From a bacterium (GTDB taxonomy: Bacteria > UBA8248): DNA of 64,000 nt. Location: NCBI GenBank assembly GCA_965213685.1, contig CBDBZY010000016.1, positions 448,001 to 512,000 of the forward strand, written 5' to 3'. The number at the start of each line of letters is the position of its first letter. Within the stretch, counting starts at the first letter, position 1. Both the position numbers and the translations under genes were made by a program. Shown here one piece after another: positions 1,008-25,012 of the stretch. The notes beneath the pieces are model-generated. The model did no database searches and had not been told where the DNA came from. It was given only the letters and a program-made list of their open reading frames with translations.

Positions 1008-4000
1008 ATGAAGCTGAACTCACTGCACTCTCTTCCTCTGGTGCTGCTTGCCATCTGCATCTCTGTGGCTGCATATGGAGAACCACTACTGCTGGAGTCA
1101 TATGAGCACACAGTGTATGTGGACTGTAGCAACCCCAATGCCACTGATGATGCCACTTGTGGAAGCCACACCCACCCTTGTTGTACCTTCTCCTATGCTG
1201 TGAGTGAGCGAGTGCTGAACTCCACTCAGGTGGTGGTCAGCAGTGGAAACTACTCACTGAACTGCACAATCAGCTTGTCTGGGCTTACCAATATAGCCCT
1301 GATTGGTATTGTGAATGGGTCATCCCAACCTGTGGTGACAGTGACATGTGAATCTGGGGCAGGCCTCAGCTTTGTCCACTCCAGTGGCATCACTATCCAG
1401 AATGTGCACTTCTCTGGCTGTGGGGCTCTGCAGAACAGCACGAGCCGTAACTTCAGTGACCACAGCTTCTCCTTCATGCAGTTTCCTGTGGGCATGTACT
1501 TCCTGTTCTGTCAGCGCATCAACCTGACCGGAGTGAGTGTCACCAACAGCACAGGGACAGGAATGGCTGTGTATGCTACTGGTGGACTCAACTACATCCA
1601 CAACTGCAGTTTCCTCTATAACAGACCCCCCAACAACAACTGCAGTTTCCTAGAAAATACGCCATCAAGGTTTGGTGGGGGAGGTCTTTATATCGAGTTT
1701 CCCTACTGTTCACCCACAAATCAAACGAGTTGTACCACTATCCAGGATAGTGAGTATAACTCTAATGCATCCTACAATATATCCGAATCATTGTTCAGTG
1801 GGAACGTTGCACTAGAAACAGAGGCAAGCATTCATGAAAGCCAGTACAATTTTCTGCCCCCTGACCCCCACTATCACAACACTGCAGGGCATGGTGGTGG
1901 TATAGCACTGTACCTGTGCAGGGCAAATGATATTCATATCTCAGTCACTGAATGTAAGATAGAGCGTAACAAGGCCTACTTTGGTGGTGGTATTGTAGTA
2001 AGTTTTGAAGAGTACAGTGTGAACAATAGAGTAGAAGTGTTTGGTAGTACTTTCAGTGACAACCACTGTGTATACCGCAGTGCCTTTGGTGGTTCTGGTG
2101 GAGGGATGACAGTACTCTTCAAGTTCTCCTACCAAGCAAGCCACACACACAACAGTATGTCTGCGAACCACTCCCACTTTGCAAATAACACGGCATATTT
2201 TGGAGGGGGATCTGTCATCAAAGCATCTCCCGAGATGGAACAGACTGACCCCACAAACAGTGTGTACTTCAATGAGTGTGTCTGGACTGGGAATTACGGG
2301 ACAGTGGGAGCTGCTCTGTTAGCCTCAGCCTACAACATATCTGCCAAAAGAGGTGCCCTATTGAAACCTGTTTTTGAGAGCTGCACTTTTGAGAACAATA
2401 CTGGGGACATCCCTGGCATTGTCACAGCAGATTACCTTCCAATTGCATTCAGTACTAATGTTAAGTTTCTTAACAATGGAAATAGTTCTCAGGCTTCTTC
2501 CCCCCTCACTATTGACCAAACCCGTGTAGATTTCTTAGAGAACTGCCAGGCTACCTTCCATCACAACAAGGCAGCGTATGGTGGTGCCATATCACTTCAT
2601 GGGTATGCCTTCATAATAGTACACAGAAATACTTCTCTAAACTTCTCACGCAATTATGCACAGCGAGAAGGTGGAGCAATTTACCAGGATCCTACCAATA
2701 CCGGACTCCTAACCAGTGGAAACTGTTTTGTGCAGTATATAAATAGTTCTGTACATCCCAAAGACTGGGAAACCAACTTCATATTTGATTTTAATCGAGA
2801 AAATGTTCATACCTCTAACCCCGAGTGCAATGCAATGGTACTGGGTTCATTAATTCCATGCATTTGGAATGGCTACACATACAGTCGATCTCAGAATGAG
2901 ATGGTCTTGAGCAAAGTGTTCTGCAGTGATCGCAACAACTGGACATTTCGATCAAACTCTACTAATTGTAGCTGTAGCAATCAGACACGAACCTTACCAA
3001 ACAGAATGACAAATAAATCATTGAATGTGATCCCAGGGCTTCGCAGTCCTCTCAACATAACACTGCTTGATGACTACAGCAAAAATGTGACAAAATATGC
3101 AGTCCTCAATGTGTGGCCTGCCACTAACAGTGCCATAAGCTTACCTCCAAACGCCTTGTATGTAACTGATGACTCTCTAGTAATGTATGGTGAAAGCATG
3201 CATAATGGAACATTGGATGTTGACACTCTGCCTCCTCGCCATCTCTTTGCCTCTGTTCCTGTTCATTTCCAGCAGTGCCCACCTGGCTTTGTGCAGACCA
3301 ATACTACTGATGGACACAAAACCTGTAGCTGTGAAAGAGGAGGTTTTGAAGGCAGTGTGCAGTGTGATGGCAGTGGCAATGCCAACCTAAGACGAGGCAT
3401 GTGGATAGGCAAGGTGAGAAGCTCTGATGACTACGTAGTTGGGCAGAGCCCTCACATCAGGTCTGGTGCTTACTCAAGTGTAGTCCTTCCTCAGAACAAT
3501 GTATCTGCACTAGATGACCTGTTATGTGGGCAGCTGAACCGTGAGGGAACCCTGTGTGGTCGTTGCAAAAAAGGGTACGGTTTTGCAGTTAGTACATACA
3601 TCTGCCACCATAAATGTGTTCACTGTAAAGGCAATTCTCCTAAATACGGCTGGACATATGTAGCATTCGAACTCATACTTATCACAGGGTTTTTTCTTAT
3701 TGTAATGACATTCAACATAAGCGCCACTTCTGGTGCTATGAATGCCTTTGTGTTCTTTGCTCAGGTAATGGCAGGGAGCTTCTCTATTAATGCCTCTGGT
3801 GATATTCCACTTGAGACAATCACCCATCGTTCTGACAGCTTGGTAGAAATATATGCTTCGCTCTATGGTATTTGGCGTCTAGACTTTATCTTCCCCAACC
3901 TTTGTTTGTCTCCACATCTCACAGCACAAAACGCATATCTCTTGCTCTACTTCAAAGCAATCTATCCAGTCTTTTTAATTTTGGTTTTCCTTGCTGTGGT

Positions 4001-5087
4001 GTGGCTCCATGACCACGGAGTTCAGCCGTTCTACAGCTGTGGTAAGTGGGTCAGCAGGCAGCTGCGCAGGCTACGAAAACCATGGACAGTTCAGAAAACA
4101 GTGATACATGCACTAGCAACCTTCCTTGTGCTCTCCTTCACCAAATTCACAGAACTGTCATTCTTCATCCTAGCTCCAGCACGACTTATTCACCATGATG
4201 GCTCTATAGTCACCTGGGTACCACGATACTATGGAGAGCTCAAGTATCTTAGTGCTGTTCACATCCCATACTTTCTTGTTGCCACACTTTTCCTCATACT
4301 CTTTGTAATACTTCCAACTCTACTTCTTCTCTTGCTTCCTGCTAGGACGAAGTGGGGCAAGCTGTTCTTTAACAAGGCTTTCAAAATTCTTCATATTAAT
4401 CCAGATGGACGCTTGCACATTTTCTTGCAAACCTTCCAGGGGAGTTTCAAGGACGGTTCAGGCTCAAAGGGTGAAATAAATTGCCAAATATTTGCTGGCA
4501 TTTATTTGCTACTCCGATTTGTCATCTTCATGCTTGCATCACTGCTCCCATCAAGAGACTATCTTATCTACCAACAGTTTGTATGCAGCATAGCCATATT
4601 GCTCTTTGCTATCTTCAGGCCTTACCGCGAGAACCGCTACAACATCTTAGATATCAGTGCATTCACACTCCTCGGTACAATCAACCTACTCACCATATTC
4701 AACAGCCTCCTTGTGGCAGTGGATGTGGAGTTGTCTCCTGTGCTCTTCACTGTCCAGTATGTACTTGTCTTTGTGCCACTTATCATCATGATCATCTGGT
4801 TCTCGTACACTATCATCAAACACTGTTGTGGCAAACATATCAAACTGAAGAGTTTCCAATCGACTGACACACCCTCCACAATTGATTCTGCTTTCTTAGA
4901 TTTCAGGAGAGATGCAAGTCTACGAGAAGGAGAGAGCAGACACAGGAATCGCTGCATCAGTGCCAGGAAGAAGACACTTGAGTCCTATAATGTTGTGCAT
5001 GACTCAGCTGGAGGAGAGGAAGAGTGTAATGATGAGTCATCGCCACTGATTGCTAGTGGACCAACATATGGTGCTAATCAGCACTAG
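1008..5087 (+). CDS. Receptor-like gene 1 (1359 aa): leader 1, N-module, ectodomain A, membrane domain A, tail X
   Basis: Uninterrupted ORF with a signal peptide, FxxN/GGAI motifs (FHHNKAAYGGAI, FSRNYAQREGGAI), many NxS/T sequons, Cys-rich CPPGF...NREGTLCGRC...C, ~9 hydrophobic segments and a FQGSFKDG/RPY motif. Confidence 0.9.
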   Translation: MKLNSLHSLPLVLLAICISVAAYGEPLLLESYEHTVYVDCSNPNATDDATCGSHTHPCCTFSYAVSERVLNSTQVVVSSGNYSLNCTISLSGLTNIALIGIVNGSSQPVVTVTCESGAGLSFVHSSGITIQNVHFSGCGALQNSTSRNFSDHSFSFMQFPVGMYFLFCQRINLTGVSVTNSTGTGMAVYATGGLNYIHNCSFLYNRPPNNNCSFLENTPSRFGGGGLYIEFPYCSPTNQTSCTTIQDSEYNSNASYNISESLFSGNVALETEASIHESQYNFLPPDPHYHNTAGHGGGIALYLCRANDIHISVTECKIERNKAYFGGGIVVSFEEYSVNNRVEVFGSTFSDNHCVYRSAFGGSGGGMTVLFKFSYQASHTHNSMSANHSHFANNTAYFGGGSVIKASPEMEQTDPTNSVYFNECVWTGNYGTVGAALLASAYNISAKRGALLKPVFESCTFENNTGDIPGIVTADYLPIAFSTNVKFLNNGNSSQASSPLTIDQTRVDFLENCQATFHHNKAAYGGAISLHGYAFIIVHRNTSLNFSRNYAQREGGAIYQDPTNTGLLTSGNCFVQYINSSVHPKDWETNFIFDFNRENVHTSNPECNAMVLGSLIPCIWNGYTYSRSQNEMVLSKVFCSDRNNWTFRSNSTNCSCSNQTRTLPNRMTNKSLNVIPGLRSPLNITLLDDYSKNVTKYAVLNVWPATNSAISLPPNALYVTDDSLVMYGESMHNGTLDVDTLPPRHLFASVPVHFQQCPPGFVQTNTTDGHKTCSCERGGFEGSVQCDGSGNANLRRGMWIGKVRSSDDYVVGQSPHIRSGAYSSVVLPQNNVSALDDLLCGQLNREGTLCGRCKKGYGFAVSTYICHHKCVHCKGNSPKYGWTYVAFELILITGFFLIVMTFNISATSGAMNAFVFFAQVMAGSFSINASGDIPLETITHRSDSLVEIYASLYGIWRLDFIFPNLCLSPHLTAQNAYLLLYFKAIYPVFLILVFLAVVWLHDHGVQPFYSCGKWVSRQLRRLRKPWTVQKTVIHALATFLVLSFTKFTELSFFILAPARLIHHDGSIVTWVPRYYGELKYLSAVHIPYFLVATLFLILFVILPTLLLLLLPARTKWGKLFFNKAFKILHINPDGRLHIFLQTFQGSFKDGSGSKGEINCQIFAGIYLLLRFVIFMLASLLPSRDYLIYQQFVCSIAILLFAIFRPYRENRYNILDISAFTLLGTINLLTIFNSLLVAVDVELSPVLFTVQYVLVFVPLIIMIIWFSYTIIKHCCGKHIKLKSFQSTDTPSTIDSAFLDFRRDASLREGESRHRNRCISARKKTLESYNVVHDSAGGEEECNDESSPLIASGPTYGANQH

Positions 5088-5541
5088 TACCTCAACTCTA
5101 CCTCCTGTTATTCTTGCATTGTCCTTTCTAGTATTGTTGCTTTTGTATTGTAGCATTAAGTGTATGTATTAATGTAGAATACATTCCTGTGTTTTTCCTA
5201 TGGGATATCAATGTTGTGCATAATTTACCCCCTTTGTTTAGCCTATACTGAGTGATGAGATTCTGCACTAATAGTTCACAGTTTGTTGAACTTACTGTAT
5301 GCATTACCTGCAAAATTTTGATGATACAAATACACTGCAGAAGAGCTCGAGTGTATTGTGTACATATTGCACGCAAAGTCTATATAGTAACAGCTACTCC
5401 CATATAATACAGCTATTTTGGGCTATGCTATGATAAGGAAGTGTTGTGATTGTGTAGCACATGGAAGGGAACCGTGGGCACTGCTACACAGGTACAACTC
5501 ACATAACAACGGTCTCTGAAAGGAACAGCTCTGTTACAATA

Positions 5542-5918
5542 CCGTATGGCGCTTAGGTCTTTATCTTTGCGAATTTCGCGAACCTTGGAGGCATTCGCGA
5601 AATTTTGAGACTCCGCCCACCAAAAATCCGATCTCGCAAGCATTCTGAAGCCACGCCTTTAGCTAGCGTTAAGCGAGTTGCAAGCTGCTAGATGCAAATA
5701 TCTGATGAACACGGTATTGTAATCACGCACCGTTGCTGTAACCTCGGGAGCTGGCACGTCTGACAGCTTGCACTAAAGTTAGTATGTTCCGCCCACACTA
5801 TCGTGCCTGGGCGCGTAGCATCTAGCGCCTACGAGCGTGGGTGTGCTGAGCGAAATTAAAATGTCCAAAACAGCTTTTCGCGAAATTTTAGACCCACGAA
5901 ATACAAAGCGCCATACGG
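5542..5918. mobile_element. MITE, Tc1/mariner-pogo type
   Basis: 13-bp TIR CCGTATGGCGCTT (5542-5554) / AAGCGCCATACGG (5906-5918), flanked by TA on both sides. Confidence 0.8.
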
Positions 5919-5920
5919 TA

Positions 5921-6660
5921 TACGCTTCACTCTATGGTAGACTATTTGGTGTCTAGACTTCAGCATTTGTTTGCATCCACTACTCACAGCGCAAAACGCA
6001 TATCTTTTGCTCGTTCACCAAATTCACGGAAGTTTCTTTTATCATCTTAGCTCCAACATCGCTAATTCACAATGATGGTTCTATAGTCACCTGGGTACCA
6101 TGGTATTCGCTGGCATTTATATGCTCCTCTGATTTGTCATCTTCATGCTTGCATCACTGCTCCCATCAAGAGACAATCTTATCTACCAACAGTTTGTATG
6201 CAGCGTAGCCATAATTATTTCTTTGCTATCTTCAGGCCTTACCGCGAGAAATGTTAAAACATCTTAGATATCAGTGCATTCACACTCCTCGGTACAATCA
6301 ACCTACTCACCATATTCAGCAGCCTCCTTGTGACAGTGGTGGGTGTGGAGTTATCACCCATACCTATACTCTTCACTGTCCAGTATATGTACTTGTGTTT
6401 GTGCCACTTATCATCATGATCATCTGGGTCTCGTACACTATCATCAAACACTGTCTGTCTCGATGTATGGGTTCCAATGCATCTGAGAGGTCACCACTGG
6501 TGCCCTTCCCTAAAGACACAGATGATGAGACATCTGAAGCCCCTCCGTTGTTGTCTGCTGATGAGGAATACTGACTCTTTGTGAAGCAACACTAAACCAG
6601 TCCTATGGACAGTCAACCAGCTGAACATATGGAACCAATAGCAGTGACAGTTAAGCTGTT
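5921..6660 (+). pseudogene. Internally deleted receptor pseudogene: membrane domain A joined to tail Y
   Basis: Collinear blocks match gene 1 at ~3850-3945, ~4137-4222 and ~4490-4826, with deletions and frameshifts. It continues as CLSRCMGSNASERSPLVPFPKDTDDETSEAPP, the tail of genes 3-5. Upstream ~5430-5535 matches the upstream region of genes 2-4. Confidence 0.85.
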
Positions 6661-7064
6661 ACTAGACTGTGTGTGCAATATGTGCACAATACACTCTTCT
6701 GCAGGTATATTTTTTCTGTTTTTGTTAGTGCGTATATAATTTTGCAGATAATGCGTACAGAAGTTCAACGAATCTCATCACTCAGTATAGGCTAACAAAG
6801 GGGATATATATATATCAGAGAGTCGGTAGACTCTCTATGTAGGGATGGCGCCGACACGCCCATAGTGCGTGTACATAGGAAAGCCTTCTTAACTGGCGAA
6901 CGCTCGCGTTCTAAGCCTTTCTGGGCCCCTAGCTATTCTATTCCAGTGATTCTCTACCCAACAATACCCCCCAAGTAGCTAAAATGCATCCCTTGACATA
7001 CTACCAGAAAACTCTCCGAAGGTCGTTTTGTCTTTCTTCCTATTCTTCTTCTTCTTCTTCTTAA

Positions 7065-7638
7065 GGCAGGACGACCCTAAGACATGATTTTGCCTGATTT
7101 ATGTTTTATTGTATTCTCCTAATGATGCCTGTTAGCGAAATAACGTAGTTTTGCGTGATATGTCGGTTCATAGAATTATAAAACTTACGCAATATGCATA
7201 TCGCTTATTATAGAAAAAAAATTTGCCAATAACGGCTAATGCTGCAGAGACGAAACTTCGGTGGATGATTACTAAGCATGTTGGCTATCTAAGTTTGCTT
7301 TAAAAATCCGTGCTAAATCTTTCTTTCTAGACATATAATCGTTTTCTTCGTGCTGCAGAATTTAGAAAAACGGTAGCAAATTCTGCCGTAAAGTAGCAAG
7401 CCAAGCCTCGAGCAACCCATTGCGCATAAACTAGTTCACTCCCCTTTGGCGAGCATCCACCTCTTCACCGGTTGGCGCCACACAGCGCCGCACGTCCAAC
7501 GGTAGCGGGAAATATGAATTCTTTCCCAGCGAATTTGCAACCGCGCCAAAGAATTGCTGTCGTTTTAGCGTTGGTAAATGTAGGGGGAAAGCGACGGTAG
7601 AGTAATTGACGAAGAACGCAATCATGACTCGTCCTCCC
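7065..7638. mobile_element. TTAA-target MITE (Kolobok-like GG..CC termini)
   Basis: TTAA|GGCAGGACGA ... TCGTCCTCCC|TTAA; TIR matches 9/10; TTAA at 7061-7064 and 7639-7642. Confidence 0.65.
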
Positions 7639-7727
7639 TTAAGAGATTTCTTTAGACTAACGTATCTCAAAACTGGCTGAAGTAATCACCGTAGTTCTTC
7701 AACGGATCCACTGTAATCACTACCAAG

Positions 7728-10136
7728 TTTTTTTTTTTTTTTTTTTTTACTGGAGAAAGGACAAATAACAAATGCAAGGATGAGGCGAATACCATACAGA
7801 GCAAATAAAGCCATTCAAAACAAACAAAAAAAATAAGTATACAGTATATGAAACTAAACTGTTCACGCATGACACACAAAGGTTTACAAATGGCAGGAAA
7901 GACCTGCCTCAGAAGTAACAAGGTCAATAAGAGGAACCGGCTGCCTCATCGCGTGGCCAACAGTAGAACGAGCACCTCTAATACACCGGATGGATGATCG
8001 TAGGAGGGAAAAAGAGAGAGCACATCTGATCCAGGCAATAGTGGAGCTGTAGGGCTGGTCATGTTTGGAGGAGAGCATGGAGGCAAGCCTCTTGTAACAG
8101 ACAGTGGCAACTTTTCCCAAACCTCCAGTGAGTGACAGGACGAGTGGAGTGAATGAGCTGTGCTCAATTTCACGGACCCTCTGTTCATAGGCACGTTTTT
8201 TTATGTTCTCATGCTTTCTGTAGCAAGTAGCAAGAGGTTGCCTGTTTGAGGGAGCATATGGGTTAAAAACCCTTACATCAAAGAAAGCTCTCTCATACTG
8301 GCCTCCCCAAAAGCCACTGGCAGCCACATCCAATCTGGCACCGTCCTCAGTGATGGCAGAGGAACTGGCGAAAGTTTCCCCAGTGAGTGGCTGAAGGGAA
8401 GGTTCTATTGAGACGTCATGGCAGACTTCTGACAGTAGGTTAGCAGTGAGGTCTCGGATCTCATTGTGTCTTAAGGTAGGGAAGCCACCTTTCTGACAGG
8501 AGAGGACATGCTCCAGGGAGAAGTTGACACCACAGGCACAGATTGCAGGGGTATTCAGTGGTTGCCAGCCATACCGGATGGCAATGGCATCTCTGAAAGC
8601 TCCCTTGTGGAGAGTGAATCCAAATTCTTCCAAAGGGAGGGCCGTGAGCCAGCTAGAGGCTCCTTTTTCCTGGGCAAGGTCTATTGCACGTTGTGTAGAA
8701 GTATCGACAGTAGCTCTGAGAGTTGCTGCGGTAGCCTTTGTTCTCTCACGATTTTGCTTGTGAACTTCTATCTTGGCTGTCAGTTGTGCCTCAATGCACT
8801 CAAGGGGGTATTCAGAACATTGTTGTAATATGAGGTCTTTCAGTGGTGCAGCTATCTTAGTGGATGAAAGATATTCGTGGGTCAAGAGAAGTGTGGGATT
8901 AGTAATGCCAAGGCCACCCAGTCTCACAGGCAGAGAAAATAACTCACGATCAGTGTCATTGGAAGGAGCTCTACCAGTTAGAACAGGGATGAAATGGAAT
9001 CTAATGTATTCTTCCAGGGGCTGCAGCAGCAACTCAATGTTGGGGGTAGTTCTACACAGATATGAGAATTTGTGCACATAGCCATGTGTGTAGGCTGCAA
9101 AAGCCACATGTGGCTGAACTCTGGCAACATCAACTAGTTGTGTTAGCTCTTTCTTCCACTGCTGAACTTTTTCAATGACAAAACTGTTGGTAAACTCATC
9201 TGAACCTATAGCAGACCCAAGATATGCTCTGCCATCTGAAGTGATATTAACCTGCGTATCCTGAAAAATATTTCTAGCATTTTCAAGGTGTGTGTCCTTC
9301 GTCACAAGCCAGGTTTTCTTGGCATTCCCAAAGTAACTAAAGGCAGGTCCAGCGGAAGTGAGGTTATCCCACCAAACACGTAGGGATGTCAGTGATCCTG
9401 AAGCGGCAGCATCATCTGCATACCAGACCTGCATATTACTGGATGTACTGCTCAAATACTTGATAAGTGGAATGGTTGCCAGGGCGTACATGGGCATTGC
9501 CAGAGGGTCTCCCTGGGTAGTGCCCTCCTCTGAGAGCAGGGTGTGCCCATCCACATAGAGATCAGAAGAATCACGGTAGATGTTGATGAGGATGGTCGCT
9601 AAGGCAGGACAAAGATATCTGATGTTGTGCAAGGCAGATTCACGGTTGAGGGCATTGAATGCGTTGGTTGCATCAACAAGCAGAACAGCTTCTGTTTCCT
9701 CCTGTTGAAAGAAGGCTCTCAAAGCATGAATGGCAGCTTCTGTTCCAGCTGTTTGCCCAGCACATAGCTGTAGTGGCCCTACTGCCTCTTGTAGATCTGC
9801 TCTGGTGATAAGGAGGACTGCTTTGGAAACGATTCGTCTTGCAGTCTCACAAATGCCAATTGGCCTCACCCCAGGGCACTTGTCCAATGCAATGAGACGA
9901 CAAGCAAGAAACGCAGCCAGGCCCTTCGGGTCTACAAAAGTGGAGCATATCCTTCTAGCCAGCAGGGCAAGGGAGAGACATAGGTCCTGTGAGGCAGACT
10001 TAAAGGAGGTGCAAAGCCTCCTCCAGCAATGTGCATCAATCCCAGAGGGACCGGCTGCACCTCTGGTGCGAAGGGCCGCAGAGCGAATTGCAGTAGCATC
10101 GATCTGATCAAACACTACTGGGTGAAGTAGGGGTGC
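7728..10136 (-). mobile_element. 5'-truncated non-LTR retrotransposon (CRE-clade type, RT plus restriction-like endonuclease)
   Basis: Poly(T) at 7728-7748 is the poly(A) tail. TSD ATCACTACCAAG(T) at 7716-7728 and 10137-10149. Confidence 0.9.
7884..10136 (-). CDS. Reverse transcriptase, CCHC zinc knuckle and RLE endonuclease (N-terminally truncated, otherwise open)
   Basis: Motifs GPSGIDA, KCPGVRPIGICET, QGDPL, YADD, CACG...HVLSC..GG...RHN and RLD...FDVRV. No stops over ~750 codons. Confidence 0.9.
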   Translation of the reverse strand, partial: APLLHPVVFDQIDATAIRSAALRTRGAAGPSGIDAHCWRRLCTSFKSASQDLCLSLALLARRICSTFVDPKGLAAFLACRLIALDKCPGVRPIGICETARRIVSKAVLLITRADLQEAVGPLQLCAGQTAGTEAAIHALRAFFQQEETEAVLLVDATNAFNALNRESALHNIRYLCPALATILINIYRDSSDLYVDGHTLLSEEGTTQGDPLAMPMYALATIPLIKYLSSTSSNMQVWYADDAAASGSLTSLRVWWDNLTSAGPAFSYFGNAKKTWLVTKDTHLENARNIFQDTQVNITSDGRAYLGSAIGSDEFTNSFVIEKVQQWKKELTQLVDVARVQPHVAFAAYTHGYVHKFSYLCRTTPNIELLLQPLEEYIRFHFIPVLTGRAPSNDTDRELFSLPVRLGGLGITNPTLLLTHEYLSSTKIAAPLKDLILQQCSEYPLECIEAQLTAKIEVHKQNRERTKATAATLRATVDTSTQRAIDLAQEKGASSWLTALPLEEFGFTLHKGAFRDAIAIRYGWQPLNTPAICACGVNFSLEHVLSCQKGGFPTLRHNEIRDLTANLLSEVCHDVSIEPSLQPLTGETFASSSAITEDGARLDVAASGFWGGQYERAFFDVRVFNPYAPSNRQPLATCYRKHENIKKRAYEQRVREIEHSSFTPLVLSLTGGLGKVATVCYKRLASMLSSKHDQPYSSTIAWIRCALSFSLLRSSIRCIRGARSTVGHAMRQPVPLIDLVTSEAGLSCHL

Positions 10137-10272
10137 ATCACTACCAAGTACGATCTGTGCTAATAAAACTCTTAGTACGTTCCCAAATGGGCAGAAACTA
10201 GAAGTCCCCGACAACTTCCCATATTTGGGAAACCATTTTGTAATAGTTACTGTCACGTGGCGCAAACGGTAA

Positions 10273-10832
10273 GGTAGGGGCGGGGGTTTCTGGAAGGGGT
10301 GGGGTTCCCGGACACTGCCACTGAGTTTCTCTGAACGAATAAGCTTTCGGTCACCGTTCTTGGTACAAACATAAGAGTGTTCACTTAGCTCTGGCCCAGT
10401 GCTGTCTCCCTTGACCGTCTTTCAGAGATGCACGGAGAAAATCACGGCATGGATATTATAGACTACGTAATCTACGTAGCTTTTCCGTGTTATCTCTGAA
10501 AAAACGATCGAGGGAGACGGCACTGCACCATTGCAGAAGAGCTAAGTGAACGCCCTTATCTTTGCGCGTAGTCTATAGTATCTAGGGTTGTGGACTTTCA
10601 AAAGCGAGAGTGTCCGGGAACCCCCGCTGTTTTGATTTTTGGGAAATCTAGAACAACGGCCCAACAACGCTGAGCTGAAGTTCTAGATTTGCTTCAAACT
10701 TGGACCGTAAGTAGCCCACTCATACACGAGCTTATAAATAGCAGTAGCACTACTGGCTTCAAAGTACACTTGAAATATAGGGCTTAATACGGAAGCCACT
10801 ACAAAGTTTGTCCGGGAACCCCCGCCCCTCCC
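10273..10832. mobile_element. Second TTAA-type MITE with an internal foldback
   Basis: GTAA|GGTAGGGGCGGGGGTT ... AACCCCCGCCCCTCCC|TTAA; internal inverted repeat ~10371-10440 versus ~10481-10560. Confidence 0.55.
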
Positions 10833-11194
10833 TTAAGCACGTGAGGGCGGGCCTCGCGAAGCCACGCCTATTAATTATAGGTTCGCGAGACGTAGCAAAG
10901 GCTGCTTCATATCTGATGGCGCGTTCGAGCAGCGTCTTACTTCACTATACTATTATGTAGCGGGGATGAGTTGGCCAGTTAGATACAGTGAGGTACATAT
11001 GTAGCTACTCTAGCTCAAGAATTTTTAGAGGGGCTCAGCCCCCAACTTCAGAAATGATGGTGTTCAAGCCCCTCCCTACCCGCCTTAGCAATGGCTGTTA
11101 TGACCACTGATTTGTTTGCTGGACTCTGAAAGAAGCTTCAGTGGCAAGAACAATACTTTTTAATGGTACCCTTGTGCAAAAAAAGGGATGCAAA

Positions 11195-11560
11195 CAAGTA
11201 TGAAAAACATTTTCAAAAAATGTATAGGGATGTAGAGATGGCCGTGCCAAAAACTACAGAAACTAGATGTAGGGATGGCAGTGTGGAGACAAGACATGTT
11301 ATACAAAGACTACACAACTAACCCCATCCCTACATCTTTTTTTTTTGGCTCAAAAATTGCTCTTCCCAGTAATCTTGTAGCATAACTCGCAGAATGATTT
11401 CAGATAATTATAAAAAAAGATGTAGGAATGGGGTTAGTTGTGTAGTCTTTGTATAACATGTCTTCCCTGCATACTGCCATCCCTACATCTAGTTTCTGTA
11501 GTTTTTGGCACGGCCATCCCTACATCCCTATACATTTTATGAAAATGTTTTTCACACTTG
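11195..11560. repeat. ~150-bp-arm inverted repeat (foldback)
   Basis: 11195-11346 is the near-perfect reverse complement of ~11412-11560, with repeated TGTAGGGATGG motifs. Confidence 0.85.
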
Positions 11561-11599
11561 TATATATATAATACAACATTGATATATATCCCAAAAATG

Positions 11600-11800
11600 T
11601 ATCCTAAATACAATACTAGGAAGGACAATTCAAGAATAACAGGAGGTAGAGTTGAGGTACTAGGGCTGATTAGCATCGTATGTTGGTCCACTAGCAATCA
11701 GTGGTGATGACTCATTATTACACTCTTACACACCACCAACACCAAACCAGTCCTATGGACAGTCAACCAGCTGAACATTATGGCAGTTACTATATAGACT
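11600..11800. pseudogene. Back-to-back relics of tail X (minus, ~11660-11727) and tail Y (plus, ~11728-11790)
   Basis: The first block matches gene 1 at ~5020-5125 in reverse. The second matches the TPPTPNQSYGQSTS end of genes 4 and 5. Confidence 0.75.
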
Positions 11801-12086
11801 GTGTGTGCAATATGTACATAATACACTCTTCTGTAGGTTTACCTTTATTCTAATGTATTGTATTTTGTTAGTGAATATCAAAATTTTGACCATGAATGTA
11901 TACAGTACGTTCAACAAACTGTGATATTGGTACAGAATCTCATCACTCAGTATAGGCTAATTATAAACAAAGGGGTATACACACAAGATTAATATCCCAT
12001 ATGAAAAACAGAAGAATGCATGCTAAATACAAAGCAACAATACTAGAAAGGACAATGCCAGAATAACAGGAGGCAGAGTTGATGTG

Positions 12087-15000
12087 CTAGTGCTGATTAG
12101 CACCATATGTTGGTCCACTAGCAATCAGTGGCAATTCATCGTTACATTCTTCCTCTCCTCCAGCCAAGTCTGGCACAACGTTATAGGACTCAAGTGTCTT
12201 CTTCCTGGCAATGGTGCAGCGATTCCTGTGCCTGTTCTCTCCTTCTCGTAGACTTACATCTCTCCTGAAGTCTAGGAAAGCACAATCAATTGTGGAGGAT
12301 GTGTCAGTCAATTGGAAACTCTTCAGCTTGATATGTTTGTCACAGCATGACTTGAGAGACTGTTTGTTGTTCTTGACTATTCGATATATTACATAACAGA
12401 TCATGTAGAAGAGAGGACAGAAGATGAGGATATACTGAAGTGCAAAGGCCCAACTAGAGAGTGGAATGCCTATTGCTGTGTGATACATGTTGATCATACT
12501 GAGAACATTGATCAGTGCAAGGATTCCAAGAATTGTGGCATCAACATTATTGTAAAAGTCTTTCTTGTATGGTCTGATGACAGTAAATAGGAGAATTCCA
12601 ACTGTGCACACCATCTGCTGGACAACATACTGGTGGAACCAGATGCCAGTATACATGAAAGAGGTGAATATTATTGTGCGCAGAAGGAAATAGAGCCCAG
12701 CAAAGTATCGGCAATCTCTTGTTCCATTTGTTCCATCTTTAAAGCAACCTTGGAATGTATCGAGAAACATCTGCATACGTCCACCAGCTTGGAAAAACTG
12801 CCCACAGCAGCCAAACCTTATAGTCAGACTCTCTAATAACTTTAAGGGGTAGACAAAGAGGATCAGAGGTGGGAGTAGTACGAATGTGATCATCACAAAC
12901 ATGGCCATTATGAAACATGGGATGTGCTCCTTGCCAAGGTATTCTGTGCCTCCTTGAAAATAGAGATGATTACCTGCTCTTGGTCCTGTGGAGTCCTGCA
13001 CAGTTGTAGGAGTGAGCAGGTAGGTAGAAACCACAGTGAACTTGGTATATGAAAGGACAAGAAATGTGGAAAAAGCGTCAATGGTGGATCTATTCAAGTT
13101 CCAGCGTCGTTGGAATGAGCCAAAAATACGATGCACTGGTTTACAGAGACAGAAGATTGGCTGTATGCCACGTTCATACAGTGACACTGTGCAGTAGAAT
13201 ACCAGTATCAGAAGCAGAGGATAAACAGCAAGGACATAGTGTAGAGACAACACTCCTAGGGTGTCTACATCAGGGCTGATGCAGAAAGGTGGCACAACGG
13301 AAGTGAAAAAGTTCAGATTCCAAATGTCGTATGGTACTTCATAGATCTTTTGCAGAGTAATGGCACTGCTAGTGACGTTTCTTATAGGGACAGTCTTATC
13401 TCCATCTATATCGAATGTTGTTGTTAGCAGTTGAGCAAAAAAGATGAAGCCATTTGCGCTGCCTCGAGTAACACTGATGTGGAAGAGGACAACAATGAAG
13501 AAGAATATAGTGATAGGGAGGATCTCTAACAGCAGGTAATAGACCCAGTGGTACAGGGCCTGCTTGTGAGTGCACTTCACACAGTCAAAGGTATTTGAGT
13601 TGATGGCAGGGGCATACCCTTTAAGACACTGTCCACAAAACATTCCTGTCCTGTTAACAGGATGGCAGAGCACTTGATCTAGCTCAGAACTTTTGTTGGG
13701 TAGCTTCACATACTCCTCCTCCATATGCACAGCAGTGTAGGGGCACATCCCCACAACAAGCTGGCCAGACGACTCGTCTATCCCCATCCACTGCCCTCTC
13801 CTCAGTTTCACTGAGAAATCCGCCTGATTGCACCTCACCACTCCACCATAGTTACCAGTACACACACACCGTGTGTTGTTGTGTGTGTCATTCTGAGGGG
13901 AAAATCCCGGGGGGCAGGGAAGAATTTCTACTACAATTTCAGTGTAGAGCACCCGAGGATTGATTGTTTCTATTGCTAGCAGAGCAGTTGAGTTTGGTTC
14001 TCCAGTTAGCTCAATAGTATTGTCGGAAACACAGGTATAGGCACTTGGAATCTGCGCAGTGTCTGGAGAGTGTGACCTCAACAAGAACACAGCATGAGCA
14101 GTTTGGTTTTTCATATTGTCCCCCAAAACCTCAAGAGGCATCAACTGTCTCTTCCCCAGTATGACCTCTATATGGTAGGATGAATCATTCTCTGTGTTAT
14201 TGAAGGCAGCTGGAGCGCTAGATATAGCGTCTGAACAGTTACCTCCGTCATGCTTCCATGTATCATTCCAACAAAACACATCTTTACGAGGATCTGAGAT
14301 CACTTTCGTGGACATTGGGTTATGGTATCCCCAAAGACAGGGAAGAAGAGATGTGCTATATATAGCATTCCCACCATCGCTGTACAGAGCAGTATTTCCC
14401 CTGAAGTAGAAAGTGGCTGTCCAGCTCCACGGCTGTAGTAGAGGGTCACTGTACTGGATGAAGCACATGCCAAACAGCTGCTGCATATGCTGCCCAACAA
14501 TGTAGGAGTATATGGCGCCACCATACTTGTCAGCTTTGTTGTCAATGAATATCATTTGTGTGTAGTTGTAAACACGAATGTAGGAGGAGCTATAGAGGGC
14601 AATGGCACCGCCAGTCCTGCCCTGGTTTCCAGTGAAGTTAGCGATGCAGTTATCTAAGAAATGCACACCACTGTCAACAACAGCCAAAGCCGATCTGTTA
14701 TTGTTTTCAAAATGGACACTATTATTAAAATGTAGAGGAAGTTTCTGTGTGTTAATTGTACCAACACCTATGGGCTCCCCGAGTATGGACACCACACTGG
14801 GATAGTCAGTATTCCCTATGAATATGCAGTCAGTGAAAACTGGATTTGTAATGGCGCCTGTCCAATCTACTGACCGCTCTGATAAGTCCATTGCACTACC
14901 AACTCTGCCAAGGTTGTATAGCCATGAACAGTTGTAGAACAGTAATCTGTTGGTAGCCAGGCTCCTGCTTCTCTCTCTGGCTGTGTCGAAGTATACCCCT

Positions 15001-16172
15001 CCCCCCCAGTACGCCCAGTTGTGTTGGAAAGTGCAGTTTTGAAAGAGCATGTTATTGAGGCTCATACGGGAATCGTTACTGAAATGGAACCCAAGTTTCA
15101 TTCCTCCACCACCTGTAGCTTGGCCAGTTGTTGCAGTAGCGTTGTAGAGGTATGCAGTGTTGTTATATATTATACAGGAGTCCATTGTGAATGTGCTGTT
15201 CCAACTCAGATGCTGGAACTCTACAAACACTCCTCCTCCCCACTCCGCCTCATTGTTCTCAAACACACACCTTTCCACTGCCACTGAGCTGTTCTCAACT
15301 TCACTGAAGAACACACTCAGGCCTCCTCCGTGACCGAATGTCAGGTGGTTCGTGTCCTGGGGCAGGAGGTAGATGTACTCCACTGGGTGCCACATGTGCC
15401 CACGATTGCCCCCAAACACACACTCACTGATCCTGTACTCCACTCCTGTGCTGTACTGTGGGGGGATGGAGGTGTTGCCTGCGTCACAGTCGCTAGGGAG
15501 TTGGGGGTCACAGAAGGGAAATTCGATGTATAGACCCCCTCCACTAGGAACCATTTCATTGTTGGGGGGTCTGTTATAGAGGAAACTGCAGTTGTGGATG
15601 TAGTTGAGTCCACCAGTAGCATACACGGCCATTCCTGTCCCTGTGCTGTTGGTGACACTCACTCCAGTCAGGTTGATGTGCTGACAGAACAGGAAGTACA
15701 CGCCCACAGGAAACTGCATGAAGGAGAAGCTGTGGTCACTGAAGTTACGGCTCGTGCTGTTCTGCAGAGCCCCACAGCCAGAGAAGTGCACATTCTGGAT
15801 AGTGATGCCACTGGACTGGACAAAGCTGAGGCCTGCCCCAGATTCACACGTCACTGTCACCACAGGTCGGGATAACCAATTTACAAATGGGTCAACACCA
15901 GTCAGGGCTATACTAGTTAATCCAGATAAGCTAATCATGTGGTTCAGTGAGTAGTCTCCACTACTCACCTCCACCTGAGTGGAGTTTAGCACTCGCTCAC
16001 TCACAGCATAGGAGAAGGTACGACAAGGGTGGGTGTGGCTTCCACAAGTGACATTGTCACTGGCATTGGGGTTGCTACAGTCCACATACACTGTGTGGTC
16101 ATAGTGAGCAAAGGAGAGGGCACTATGCAGCACAGCTGCCACCAGCAGCCAGAACAACCTCTCAGATGTCAT
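12087..16172 (-). CDS. Receptor-like gene 2 (~1361 aa from MTSERL): ectodomain B, membrane domain B, tail X
   Basis: Open ORF paralogous to genes 3-5, but the last ~85 aa match gene 1. The ATG at 16172 precedes the conserved signal peptide. Confidence 0.9.
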   Translation of the reverse strand: MTSERLFWLLVAAVLHSALSFAHYDHTVYVDCSNPNASDNVTCGSHTHPCRTFSYAVSERVLNSTQVEVSSGDYSLNHMISLSGLTSIALTGVDPFVNWLSRPVVTVTCESGAGLSFVQSSGITIQNVHFSGCGALQNSTSRNFSDHSFSFMQFPVGVYFLFCQHINLTGVSVTNSTGTGMAVYATGGLNYIHNCSFLYNRPPNNEMVPSGGGLYIEFPFCDPQLPSDCDAGNTSIPPQYSTGVEYRISECVFGGNRGHMWHPVEYIYLLPQDTNHLTFGHGGGLSVFFSEVENSSVAVERCVFENNEAEWGGGVFVEFQHLSWNSTFTMDSCIIYNNTAYLYNATATTGQATGGGGMKLGFHFSNDSRMSLNNMLFQNCTFQHNWAYWGGGVYFDTARERSRSLATNRLLFYNCSWLYNLGRVGSAMDLSERSVDWTGAITNPVFTDCIFIGNTDYPSVVSILGEPIGVGTINTQKLPLHFNNSVHFENNNRSALAVVDSGVHFLDNCIANFTGNQGRTGGAIALYSSSYIRVYNYTQMIFIDNKADKYGGAIYSYIVGQHMQQLFGMCFIQYSDPLLQPWSWTATFYFRGNTALYSDGGNAIYSTSLLPCLWGYHNPMSTKVISDPRKDVFCWNDTWKHDGGNCSDAISSAPAAFNNTENDSSYHIEVILGKRQLMPLEVLGDNMKNQTAHAVFLLRSHSPDTAQIPSAYTCVSDNTIELTGEPNSTALLAIETINPRVLYTEIVVEILPCPPGFSPQNDTHNNTRCVCTGNYGGVVRCNQADFSVKLRRGQWMGIDESSGQLVVGMCPYTAVHMEEEYVKLPNKSSELDQVLCHPVNRTGMFCGQCLKGYAPAINSNTFDCVKCTHKQALYHWVYYLLLEILPITIFFFIVVLFHISVTRGSANGFIFFAQLLTTTFDIDGDKTVPIRNVTSSAITLQKIYEVPYDIWNLNFFTSVVPPFCISPDVDTLGVLSLHYVLAVYPLLLILVFYCTVSLYERGIQPIFCLCKPVHRIFGSFQRRWNLNRSTIDAFSTFLVLSYTKFTVVSTYLLTPTTVQDSTGPRAGNHLYFQGGTEYLGKEHIPCFIMAMFVMITFVLLPPLILFVYPLKLLESLTIRFGCCGQFFQAGGRMQMFLDTFQGCFKDGTNGTRDCRYFAGLYFLLRTIIFTSFMYTGIWFHQYVVQQMVCTVGILLFTVIRPYKKDFYNNVDATILGILALINVLSMINMYHTAIGIPLSSWAFALQYILIFCPLFYMICYVIYRIVKNNKQSLKSCCDKHIKLKSFQLTDTSSTIDCAFLDFRRDVSLREGENRHRNRCTIARKKTLESYNVVPDLAGGEEECNDELPLIASGPTYGANQH

Positions 16173-16688
16173 CACGCTCTTTTTCAATCTAGCAGGACAA
16201 CAAGAGTAGGGCTGATATATGCAATACATTAGCCACTGTATGTGTAAAGCTATATGCACACGTATTACTGCTAATGTCACACTCTCTGAATACAGCGAAA
16301 ACAGAACTGTTCTCTTCATAGACGATTGTTGTGTGAGTTGCACCTGTGTAGCAGTGCCCATGGTTCCCTCCCACGTGCTACACAATCACAACACTTTCTT
16401 TCTCATGTGGCCCACAGCACAGCTCAAAATAGCTGTATTATTTGTATTATATGTTGCCCTGCAACTTGTATGGCAAAGGCCTTTGTTAAAGGAACAATGT
16501 CAGTTGCTGTAAATAACATAGTCCGTATGTATAATACCTAAAAGTGCATGGTTTGCTATACGTGACGTATGCTACTTTGTTCTGGGCTAATGCTCACCTG
16601 CTGTGTGTTGAAACGCTCCCTTTTCACGCTGCGTATACACACGTACTGCAGCTTGTAAACTAGCTACTCAGTCCAGTTGAGCCTTATA

Positions 16689-24997: not shown

Positions 24998-25012
24998 CAC
25001 GCTCTTCTTCAA

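What the first reader, a model, noticed from the sequence alone, without database searches (positions are those of the whole stretch)
4800..12360. Reciprocal cytoplasmic-tail swap explained by an inversion between convergent genes (shufflon-like geometry)
Seen: all four body/tail combinations exist and switch at one Cys codon. G1 AAACAC-TGT-TGTGGC (A+X, 4824); pseudogene AAACAC-TGT-CTGTCT (A+Y, 6452); G2 AAGTCA-TGC-TGTGAC (B+X, ~12346); G3-5 AGGTCA-TGT-CTGTCT (B+Y). The two reciprocal products face each other. The X-3'flank/Y-3'flank spacer after G1 (~5088-5395) recurs in the opposite orientation between them. Inference: flipping ~6453-12346 in an ancestral A-X><Y-B pair, using only 2-3 bp of microhomology, swapped the tails in frame in both genes. 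No recombinase is encoded in the window, so this may be a single old event.
Basis: partly seen in the sequence, partly recalled or inferred. Interest (0 to 1): 0.85.

Follow-up and report, generated by a model that had tools for sequence, protein, structure and literature searches.

The report
Old inversion swapped two receptor tails
In a cluster of large membrane-protein genes, probably from a sponge, a small ancient flip of DNA between two genes that face each other most likely exchanged their tail ends, leaving one working hybrid gene and one dead one; it is a tidy example of a known way of making hybrid genes, not a working genetic switch.

Summary
Four body/tail combinations exist and all switch at one Cys codon: 4824 (G1), 6452 (pseudogene), 12345-12347 (G2) and the three B-Y genes. 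The spacer after G1 recurs reverse-complemented between the two hybrids.

The window is eukaryote-like DNA, probably sponge, inside a mixed 'prokaryote' assembly. In 81 relatives from other assemblies, X-type tails sit only on A-type bodies and Y-type tails on B-type bodies. None has B-X or A-Y. G2 (B-X) and the pseudogene (A-Y) are therefore derived. They are adjacent and convergent, with Y, flipped spacer and flipped X between them.

Best reading (0.62): one old inversion of a module of about 1 kb (tail, spacer, tail), with 3 nt of exact microhomology. It was not clean. The flipped spacer is present twice, a 200-nt piece of Y is missing, and a 4.8-kb block of transposable elements came later.

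Nothing supports an active shufflon. No recombinase was found, there are no repeat sites at the ends, the copies have diverged by about 8%, and one product is decayed. The same cluster holds at least two other illegitimate in-frame junctions.

The parts
1008..5087 (+). G1: intact gene of 1359 aa with an A-type body and an X tail. This is the parental combination.
   Evidence: ORF. Chlam_PMP repeat in Pfam. Contigs of runs X2 and X7 bridge the A|X codon.
4824..5087 (+). X tail of G1. The junction Cys codon TGT is at 4824-4826.
   Evidence: 92.0% identical to the X tail of G2, with dN/dS 0.30.
5088..5398 (+). Spacer S1. It consists of the X 3' flank (about 5088-5225) followed by the reverse complement of the Y 3' flank (about 5226-5398), and ends at about the position of the Y stop codon.
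   Evidence: 5230-5395 matches the + strand just before the stops of G3, G4 and G5.
5401..5535 (+). Copy of a repeated element that also lies just upstream of G2, G3 and G4.
   Evidence: 82-86% identical to 16444-16300, 25253-25117 and 30548-30442. It has 5-19 copies elsewhere in the assembly.
5538..5923 (.). Small element with 16-nt perfect terminal inverted repeats (5539-5554 and 5906-5921). It cuts off the pseudogene at its 5' side.
   Evidence: pair I24; 1-4 outside copies.
5919..6451 (+). Pseudogene, A-body remnants. They correspond to G1 3850-3947, 4133-4223 and 4489-4823. They lie in three reading frames with stop codons.
   Evidence: (93.4% to G1).
6452..6654 (+). Pseudogene Y tail. 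The junction codon TGT is at 6452-6454. The first 135 nt of Y are followed directly by the last 68 nt or so, so about 200 nt are missing. The A-to-Y junction is in frame.
6655..6803 (+). Flipped spacer, copy 1, first half (the Y-flank part).
   Evidence: pairs I8, I9, I14.
6804..11561 (.). Later block of repeats inserted in a (TA)n stretch of the spacer. It includes an 845-aa reverse-transcriptase-like ORF (7884-10421, - strand) and an element of about 750 bp with a palindrome (10834-11589).
   Evidence: outside copies on contigs C18, C64, C41 and C56, some 95-98% identical. RVT_1 at E 3.5e-5, below Pfam's cut-off; pair I2.
11562..11659 (+). Flipped spacer, copy 1, second half (the X-flank part). 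It resumes after the repeat block.
11660..11738 (-). Xf: a loose copy of the last 78 nt of the X tail, with its stop codon, on the - strand.
   Evidence: 91.5% identical to G1 and 85.7% to G2.
11739..11783 (+). Loose copy of the last 45-55 nt of the Y tail. It starts the second copy of the duplicated unit.
   Evidence: 92-94% identical to G3-5 and to the pseudogene.
11783..12086 (-). Flipped spacer, copy 2 (S3). It is whole and contiguous with the X tail of G2.
   Evidence: pairs I4-I7, I10. Contigs of runs X2, X5 and X7 cover it.
12087..12347 (-). X tail of G2. The junction codon TGC is at 12345-12347.
   Evidence: X2 record 8 and X7 record 23 bridge the junction with 0 differences.
12087..16361 (-). 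G2: intact hybrid gene with a B-type body and an X tail. The start shared with its paralogues is probably the ATG at 16172.
   Evidence: 78-100% nt identity to G3-5 in 150-nt windows over the whole body.
20783..35596 (-). G3 (20783-24997), G4 (26067-30296) and G5 (31358-35596): B-type body with Y tail, the parental combination. Each keeps only about 175 nt of the spacer's Y-flank part.

Best explanation
The locus once held two convergent paralogues, A-X> <Y-B. Their stop codons were about 310 bp apart and they shared one spacer.

A single old rearrangement turned over the module of about 1 kb made of X tail, spacer and Y tail. Its end points lay in the same Cys codon of both genes. That codon sits about 8 residues after the last membrane helix, at the edge of a mostly disordered tail. 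The only exact sequence identity at the break is TGT; with two 1-nt gaps, about 8 nt match.

Because the genes face each other, the flip put Y in frame behind body A and X in frame behind body B. This gave the hybrids now seen as the pseudogene (A-Y) and G2 (B-X). G2 kept an open frame under purifying selection. The A-Y gene decayed.

Two details suggest low-fidelity repair or serial template switching during replication rather than two clean breaks. About 470 bp of the flipped module (Y end, spacer, X end) is doubled, and 200 nt of Y is missing. Transposable elements were inserted later.

Shown: the four combinations, the shared codon, the orientation and extent of every copy, the state in relatives, and the selection on G2's tail. 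Inferred: that one event made both hybrids, the type of repair, and that the tail is cytoplasmic. The last point rests on the lysine/arginine-rich stretch after the last helix.
For: 1. Junctions and homology blocks.

2. Polarity. Among 81 relatives from other assemblies, X-type tail hits occur in 2, both with A-type bodies. Y-type hits occur in 18: 17 with B-best bodies and 1 a B/C tie. 0 of 81 show B-X or A-Y (the tails are printed).

3. Geometry. The pseudogene and G2 form the only convergent gene boundary in the cluster. Once the repeat block is removed, what lies between body A and body B is Y, flipped spacer and flipped X, and nothing else. X is followed by the spacer in one orientation in all 3 X copies. 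Y is followed by it in the other orientation in all 5 Y copies.

4. No colinear homology exists on either side that could carry gene conversion or a homologous crossover. In the 150-nt windows before the junction, A and B are 46-58% identical; X and Y are 31-38% identical.

5. Timing is coherent. Identities are: X of G1 versus G2, 92.0%; A of the pseudogene versus G1, 93.4%; Y of the pseudogene versus G3-5, 91-92%; B of G2 versus G3-5, 89-92%. Synonymous divergence (dS) is 0.23 for X, 0.12-0.20 for B and 0.16-0.20 for Y.

6. G2's X tail is under constraint, with dN/dS 0.30.

7. The junction lies at model residue about 460, just after helix 424-452, where model confidence falls from above 90 to about 55.

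8. The G1 and G2 junctions are bridged by contigs from two different studies (X2 and X7).
Against: - The uninverted pair is not seen anywhere. G1's spacer stops at about the Y stop codon, and no orthologous locus was obtained.
- A clean inversion predicts one flipped spacer. There are two, plus a 200-nt gap in Y, so extra steps are needed.
- The loose X fragment is nearer to G1 (91.5%) than to G2 (85.7%). The spacer copies are roughly equidistant at 76-86%. The order of events therefore cannot be read from divergence.
- The same cluster made other illegitimate in-frame junctions without any inversion: G7 at 46211-46255 and G1 at 1602-1673. One-sided copy-and-paste events do happen here.
- The pseudogene's own junction is not among the contig pieces listed.
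- Two breaks hitting the same codon is unlikely a priori, and has to be explained by survival of the working product.
Confidence: 0.62

Rival explanations
1. Two separate one-sided events made the hybrids. In one, a stretch holding X and the spacer was copied from a G1-like gene into the end of a B-Y gene. In the other, Y and the spacer were copied into the end of an A-X gene. Each happened by template switching during repair, and each happened to use the same domain boundary.
For: One-sided illegitimate in-frame junctions exist in the cluster. G7 is G1-like, then has 45 nt of filler, then is G6-like. G1 has a B-type 5' part joined out of register, with a 12-codon repeat. The 5' 450-750 nt are 89-100% identical in all 7 genes on both strands, so sequence does move between oppositely oriented copies. 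The doubled module shows that more than one step took place.
Against: It needs two independent hits in the same codon. They would have to fall in neighbouring genes that face each other, with each pasted stretch running through the whole spacer into the other tail. That outcome is what a flip gives for free. The four divergences are alike.
Confidence: 0.2
2. A homologous crossover between inverted paralogues, the classical way that repeats in opposite orientation invert what lies between them. The two genes were alike around the junction at the time.
For: A crossover between aligned homologous positions explains without further assumptions why both junctions are in register, with no base lost or gained.
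Against: A and B share only 46-58% of bases in the windows before the junction. X and Y share 31-38%. The hybrids are only about 8% from their parents. Relatives in other assemblies already have distinct A-X and B-Y types, so the two genes were unlike long before the event.
Confidence: 0.07
3. A working invertible switch (shufflon-like) that still flips the tail module in cells or between individuals.
For: The geometry is right. Alternative 3' ends lie on a segment between two fixed gene bodies, and both products are in frame.
Against: No recombinase or transposase family was found in the 20 ORFs scanned: the 4 and the 16. No inverted repeat lies at 6452 and 12347 beyond 3 nt among the 25 longest of 84 pairs. 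One product is a pseudogene with stops, frameshifts and deletions. A 4.8-kb repeat block sits inside the segment. The copies are about 8% diverged.
Confidence: 0.03
4. An assembly artefact: paralogous reads joined wrongly in a repeated gene family.
For: The family is repetitive and the assembly is a mixed bin. The pseudogene junction is not among the listed contig pieces.
Against: The G1 and G2 junctions, the boundary between spacer S1 and the next element, and spacer S3 are each covered by error-free contigs from runs of at least two studies (X2, X5, X7). The pseudogene differs by 7-9% from every possible source copy, so it is not a mix of them.
Confidence: 0.03

Closest known systems
Invertible segments that swap protein C-termini: the R64 shufflon (Rci recombinase, PilV) and the phage Mu G segment (Gin, tail-fibre genes). 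Recalled from general knowledge, not from a call.
   Same: Alternative 3' coding ends lie in opposite orientation on one segment. Turning the segment puts a different end in frame behind a fixed 5' part.
   Different: Those systems have a dedicated recombinase, defined repeat sites at the ends, one fixed 5' part, and both orientations present in a population. Here two fixed bodies face each other and exchange tails reciprocally. There is no recombinase and no sites, the copies have diverged, and one product is dead.
Fusion genes made by inversions with both breaks inside genes, for example EML4-ALK from inv(2) in tumours (recalled).
   Same: One inversion gives two reciprocal hybrid genes. Little or no homology is needed at the breaks.
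   Different: Those breaks lie in introns and splicing restores the frame. They are somatic, and the partner genes are unrelated. Here the genes have no introns, the breaks are in the same codon of two paralogues, and the event is germ-line and old.
Inversions by crossover between inverted paralogous repeats, for example the factor VIII intron-22 inversions and IDS/IDSP1 (recalled).
   Same: Paralogues in opposite orientation, an inverted interval and hybrid copies.
   Different: Those need long, nearly identical repeats across the breakpoint. Here identity at the breakpoint is 3 nt.
Complex rearrangements by serial template switching with microhomology, such as MMBIR/FoSTeS and duplication-inverted-triplication structures (recalled).
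   Same: Short-range inverted and duplicated pieces, a small deletion, and junctions with 0-3 nt of identity, all within about 1 kb.
   Different: A single origin for all junctions cannot be shown. The usual human examples span kilobases to megabases and are not in-frame swaps between paralogues.
Chlamydial polymorphic membrane proteins (Pmp autotransporters), as a comparison for the gene family.
   Same: Pfam finds Chlam_PMP repeats in 3 of 3 family members scanned and a right-handed beta-helix in 1 of 3.
   Different: No autotransporter barrel is present. The C-terminal 500 aa fold as a bundle of membrane helices (pLDDT 84.8) with no clear solved counterpart. The nearest Atlas clusters are 100% eukaryotic, with Porifera as the only phylum on record.

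Membership tests
Shufflon / site-specific invertible DNA switch | A recombinase gene (Rci, Hin, Gin or Cin type, or another) beside the segment | tested here: not met
   Pfam was run on 4 ORFs and on 16 further ORFs of at least 150 aa. No recombinase or transposase family was found. The only enzyme-like hit inside the segment is a weak RVT_1 match in a retroelement. ORFs under 150 aa and the rest of the genome were not scanned for this.
Shufflon / site-specific invertible DNA switch | Specific inverted repeat sites at both ends of the segment | tested here: not met
   none of the 25 longest of 84 inverted pairs has arms at 6452 and 12347. Exact identity there is TGT/ACA only.
Shufflon / site-specific invertible DNA switch | Both orientations present in one population | tested here: inconclusive
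   laid contigs only, which drop rare variants. Only 15 of 380 joints were shown, and none lies at the junctions.
Inversion by homologous crossover between inverted repeats | Long, highly identical inverted repeats spanning the breakpoints | tested here: not met
   G1 versus G2-5 is 46-58% identical in the windows before the junction, and X versus Y is 31-38%. One search gives no blastn hit between A and B near the junction.
Microhomology-mediated rearrangement (end joining or template switching) that makes hybrid genes | Junctions with 0 to a few nt of identity and no long homology | tested here: met
   TGT is shared at both junctions; the junction between the two copies of the doubled unit (about 11730-11738) has at most 2 nt shared or added.
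Microhomology-mediated rearrangement (end joining or template switching) that makes hybrid genes | Extra small duplications or deletions next to the breakpoints | tested here: met
   A unit of about 470 bp is present twice (6587-6803 plus 11562-11738, and 11730-12165). About 200 nt of Y is missing at 6586/6587.
Chlamydial Pmp autotransporters | GGA(I/L/V) and FxxN repeats in a beta-helix | tested here: met
   Chlam_PMP with E 1.9e-10 to 1.2e-5 in 3 of 3 proteins; Beta_helix with E 6.5e-10 in G2.
Chlamydial Pmp autotransporters | C-terminal autotransporter beta-barrel | tested here: not met
   No such Pfam hit. The last 545 aa are predicted as helices, and hydropathy gives 5-7 membrane segments.

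The most novel reading that the evidence does not exclude
The tail swap is one visible product of a cluster-wide habit. In this (probable) sponge receptor family, whole modules are exchanged in frame at domain boundaries by microhomology-guided template switching. The modules are the 5' block, the beta-helix, the membrane domain and the tail. The tail-spacer-tail cassette between convergent genes may flip more than once. That would be a germ-line, or even somatic, way of diversifying surface receptors in an early-branching animal.
Probability: 0.08. Interest if true: 0.75.

Novelty: new member of a known kind. Interest (0 to 1): 0.36.

Why it matters
It is an unusually legible natural example of how one small inversion between genes that face each other can trade protein modules in both directions without breaking the reading frame, in genes with no introns to absorb the breaks.

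It also shows that this large, uncharacterised family evolves as a mosaic. The family, probably from sponges, has a beta-helix ectodomain and a multi-pass membrane domain of no recognised fold. That matters for anyone building trees of these genes or calling orthologues among them.

Tried and rejected
Search for the uninverted or orthologous locus. All five attempts were blank:
- Genome contigs with the last 261 aa of G1;
- Metagenome contigs with an alignment of 9 A-type proteins;
- 41 genomes of the bacterium's family;
- exact junction strings in metagenome contigs and genome contigs.

The tool that would fetch the contigs of the relatives was closed.

A search with the X tail alone found only G1.

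Expression: no RNA holder was listed.

Habitat: several runs labelled 'sponge metagenome' or 'coral reef metagenome' held shares of 0.05-0.16, but I did not lay them, so they are not used as evidence.

Reads:
- Only contigs were available.
- The pseudogene junction at 6452 is not among the 32 pieces listed.
- None of the 15 joints shown (of 380) lies at a junction or changes strand.

Fold of the membrane domain: Foldseek against the PDB gave a best E of 0.14. VIA-align wide gave a best Z of 7.6 against designed helical proteins, which is within noise for helical bundles.

Literature: three searches were seen as listings only. None named this family or a reciprocal in-frame swap by inversion between paralogues. 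No paper was read.

Earlier notes of this scan: nothing.

Readings considered and dropped:
- Gene conversion of the tail. There is no colinear homology on either side, because the 3' flanks of X and Y are reverse complements of each other.
- The pseudogene's Y piece as an alternative exon of G1. There is no GT or AG consensus at 4824 or 6452 in the sequence.
- A hybrid retrocopy made by reverse-transcriptase template switching. There is no poly(A) at the end of the copied stretch, and this would not explain the mirror-image product next door.

A search for the origin of the G7 filler failed because my script picked non-contiguous columns.

Full report
WHAT THE WINDOW IS

The window lies on contig C16 (526,799 bp) of an assembly of 7.97 Mb that is filed as a prokaryote. 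The assembly is mixed. Most contigs have 61-69% G+C, but 4.90 Mb sits in contigs under 56% G+C, C16 among them.

The window holds seven uninterrupted ORFs of 1359-1439 aa under the standard code:
- G1, 1008-5087, + strand
- G2, 12087-16361, - strand
- G3, 20783-24997, - strand
- G4, 26067-30296, - strand
- G5, 31358-35596, - strand
- G6, 36951-41270, + strand
- G7, 43952-48271, + strand

Downstream there are exon-like pieces of CYRIA/CYRIB, the RNA polymerase III subunit Rpc34 and an HpcH-type lyase. The nearest clusters in the ESM Atlas are 100% eukaryotic, with Porifera as the only phylum on record. I therefore read the window as host DNA, probably sponge, binned with a bacterium.

The proteins have four parts: a signal peptide, a beta-helix with Chlam_PMP repeats, a Cys-rich CPPGF stretch, and a C-terminal domain of about 500 aa made of membrane helices. 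The membrane domain models well (pLDDT 84.8, pTM 0.81) but matches no solved fold clearly. In the 8-Mb assembly, close copies of the family occur only in this window; five distant matches (26-33% identity) lie on C64.

THE OBSERVATION

The blastn blocks change partner within 6 nt of one Cys codon:
- Body A of G1 (4489-4826) continues in the pseudogene (6104-6454).
- Tail X plus the spacer of G1 (4824-5394) matches the reverse complement of 12347-11783 in G2.
- Tail Y of the pseudogene (from 6452) matches G3-5 from 21175, 26468 and 31759.
- Body B of G2 (from 12342) matches G3-5 from 21169, 26462 and 31753.

All X, Y and spacer copies in the assembly lie in this window.

The pseudogene is truly dead. 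Its A part runs in three frames with stop codons and two internal gaps. Its last stretch...VLVFVPLIIMIIWVSYTIIKH-C-LSRCMGSN...ADEEY*, crosses the junction in one frame.

WHICH COMBINATIONS ARE OLD

I took 81 relatives from other assemblies and typed each in two ways. The body type was set by blastp bits to the last 380 aa of the bodies of G1, G4 and G6. The tail type was set by hits to the X, Y and Z tails in the last 200 aa.
- X-type tails were found in 2 proteins, both with A-type bodies.
- Y-type tails were found in 18: 17 with B-best bodies and 1 a tie between B and C.
- The Z type was found in 1, with a C-type body.
- 60 gave no tail hit.
- None of the 81 shows B-X or A-Y.

Of the 16 relatives with B-body scores above 450 bits, 14 carry a Y-type tail.

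So A-X (G1) and B-Y (G3-5) are the parental types. G2 and the pseudogene are the recombinants. By eye, all tail types share an acidic-x-x-(F/Y)-x-x-F ... R-x-R-E-x-R-Y motif, so X and Y are old, diverged versions of one tail.

ANATOMY BETWEEN THE TWO HYBRIDS

Positions 6804 to about 11561 are repeats with copies on other low-G+C contigs, some 95-98% identical. They sit in a (TA)n run of the spacer, and the spacer resumes on the far side.

With that block removed, the + strand reads as follows:
1. Body A.
2. The Cys codon.
3. The first 135 nt of Y.
4. A gap where about 200 nt of Y are missing.
5. The Y end (about 68 nt).
6. The flipped spacer.
7. The flipped last 78 nt of X.
8. Then again: the Y end (about 50 nt), the flipped spacer, and flipped X, this time whole.
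9. The Cys codon.
10. Flipped body B.

So what lies between A and B is the X-spacer-Y module turned over, with about 470 bp of it doubled in tandem.

After G1 the same spacer stands the other way round and runs to about the place of the Y stop codon. There it abuts a repeated element that also lies upstream of G2-4.

The spacer is a composite. Its first 140 nt or so are the 3' flank of X. Its last 175 nt or so are the reverse complement of the 3' flank of Y. G3, G4 and G5 keep only the 175-nt part. That composite is itself a trace of an X gene and a Y gene that once ended tail to tail.

WHY AN INVERSION

The pseudogene and G2 form the only convergent gene boundary in the cluster. They are the two reciprocal recombinants, they switch at the same codon, and the DNA between them is the parental module reversed. 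One flip explains all of this.

Gene conversion or a homologous crossover would need colinear homology, and there is none:
- A and B share 46-58% of bases just before the junction.
- X and Y share 31-38%.
- The flanks of X and Y are reverse complements of each other.

Exact identity at the break is TGT. Allowing two 1-nt gaps, CA(C)TGT(C)TGT matches.

The four divergences that a single event predicts to be pairwise equal are indeed alike:
- A of the pseudogene versus G1, 93.4%, and X of G2 versus G1, 92.0%.
- Y of the pseudogene versus G3-5, 91-92%, and B of G2 versus G3-5, 89-92%.

Synonymous divergence (dS) is 0.12-0.23 throughout. G2's transplanted tail has dN/dS 0.30 against G1's, so it has been kept in use.

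The junction falls about 8 residues after the last long helix, where model confidence drops. A hybrid is likely to be tolerated there. That helps explain why this event survived, although two breaks in the same codon are unlikely beforehand.

WHAT DOES NOT FIT A CLEAN FLIP

- There are two flipped spacers and a 200-nt gap in Y.
- The gap ends within about 8 nt of where the second Y-end copy begins, in a CA-rich run. I cannot explain this by chance alone. It suggests repeated re-priming at one spot.
- The loose X fragment is nearer to G1 than to G2, at 91.5% versus 85.7% over 129 nt.
- The six copies of the Y flank are roughly equidistant at 76-86%, apart from the G3-5 group. The order of steps cannot be read from divergence.

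A series of short template switches in one faulty replication or repair event would give the flip, the doubling and the gap together. Alternatively, a flip could have been followed by a tandem duplication and a deletion. I cannot tell these apart.

CONTEXT: THE CLUSTER IS A MOSAIC

- In aligned codons 100-250, all seven genes are 89-100% identical at the DNA level, on both strands.
- G1 and G7 are 85-100% identical from about codon 300 to 850, and then about 50%.
- G6 and G7 are 80-98% identical from about codon 850 to 1350, falling to 62-81% over the tail.
- G2 and G6 are 90-99% identical up to about codon 400, and then about 57%.

Two of these boundaries are illegitimate and in frame:
- In G7 the G1-like part ends, 45 nt with no counterpart follow (46211-46255), and then the G6-like part begins.
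- In G1 the shared 5' block is joined out of register, so that NCSFL... occurs twice, 12 codons apart (1602-1673).

One-sided copy-and-paste events therefore occur here. This keeps the rival of two separate events alive at about 0.2.

NOT A SWITCH

- None of the 20 ORFs scanned by Pfam is a recombinase or transposase.
- No inverted repeat marks the ends.
- One product is decayed.
- A 4.8-kb repeat block lies inside the segment.

SUPPORT FOR THE ASSEMBLY

Error-free contigs from public runs bridge the following:
- the G1 junction (X2 record 1, 4672-5071; X7 record 17, 4300-5071, with 2 differences);
- the G2 junction (X2 record 8, 12103-12414; X7 record 23, 12103-12410);
- the boundary between spacer S1 and the next element (X2 record 2; X5 record 10).

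X2 may be the source sample. X5 and X7 come from other studies.

WHAT IS KNOWN

These comparisons are recalled, not tested against papers. Inversions with both breaks in genes give reciprocal fusions in tumours. Crossovers between inverted repeats give hybrid copies in several human disease loci. Shufflons and phage invertible segments swap protein ends by design.

The present case works like the first group: breakage or switching with microhomology. It shares only its geometry with the last. Three literature searches (listings only) turned up neither this gene family nor a like case. That is weak evidence of absence.

VERDICT

The historical inversion is the best-supported reading (0.62), but it is not proven for want of the ancestral state. 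Active switching is very unlikely. This is a new, unusually clear member of a known kind of event, of moderate interest.

Noticed in passing
whole assembly G000; window = C16:448001-512000: The 'prokaryote' genome is a mixed bin. 4.90 of 7.97 Mb lies in contigs under 56% G+C, against 61-69% for the rest. The window's contig carries animal-type genes and retroelements, although the record's quality figures read 94% complete and 3.7% contaminated.
   Followed up: partly
window 46211-46255 (G7): G7 is a hybrid. It is G1-like for about 750 aa, then has 45 nt (15 codons, RPTYSSVDLSQNVRE) with no counterpart in G1 or G6, and is then G6-like to the end, all in frame.
   Followed up: partly
window 1602-1673 (G1): The 5' block shared by all seven genes is joined to G1's own beta-helix out of register, so the motif NCSFL... 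appears twice, 12 codons apart.
   Followed up: partly
aligned codons 100-250 of G1-G7 (for example window about 1150-1600 in G1): About 450 nt are 89-100% identical in all seven genes on both strands, while the rest of the bodies are 36-60% identical between types. This looks like homogenisation by gene conversion.
   Followed up: no
window 12090-13724 (- strand), G2 residues 880-1424: The multi-helix membrane domain models with high confidence (pLDDT 84.8, pTM 0.81). It finds no clear solved counterpart: the best Foldseek E is 0.14 and the best VIA Z is 7.6, against designed helical proteins.
   Followed up: partly
window 6586/6587 and 11730-11745: The 200-nt gap in the pseudogene's Y tail ends within about 8 nt of the point where the second, loose Y-end copy begins. 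Both lie in the CA-rich run ACACCACCAACACC. Unexplained; it may mark a favoured re-priming or breakage spot.
   Followed up: no
window 6804-11561: Nested repeats: an element with 20 or more copies (6810-7728); a retroelement with an 845-aa reverse-transcriptase-like ORF (7884-10421, - strand), with copies on C18 that are 95.8% and 98.2% identical; and an element of about 750 bp with 20 or more copies and a 150-nt palindrome (10834-11589).
   Followed up: partly
window 24998-26066 and 30297-31357: The G4 and G5 units are a recent tandem duplication. Their intergenic DNA is 97% identical over about 1070 bp.
   Followed up: no
window 4824-5394 versus 11783-12347: G1's X tail plus spacer and G2's now form an inverted repeat of about 570 bp, 91-95% complementary in blocks of 105-212 nt and 6.4-7.1 kb apart. 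This could support homologous inversion of the interval today. Such an inversion would not change either tail.
   Followed up: no
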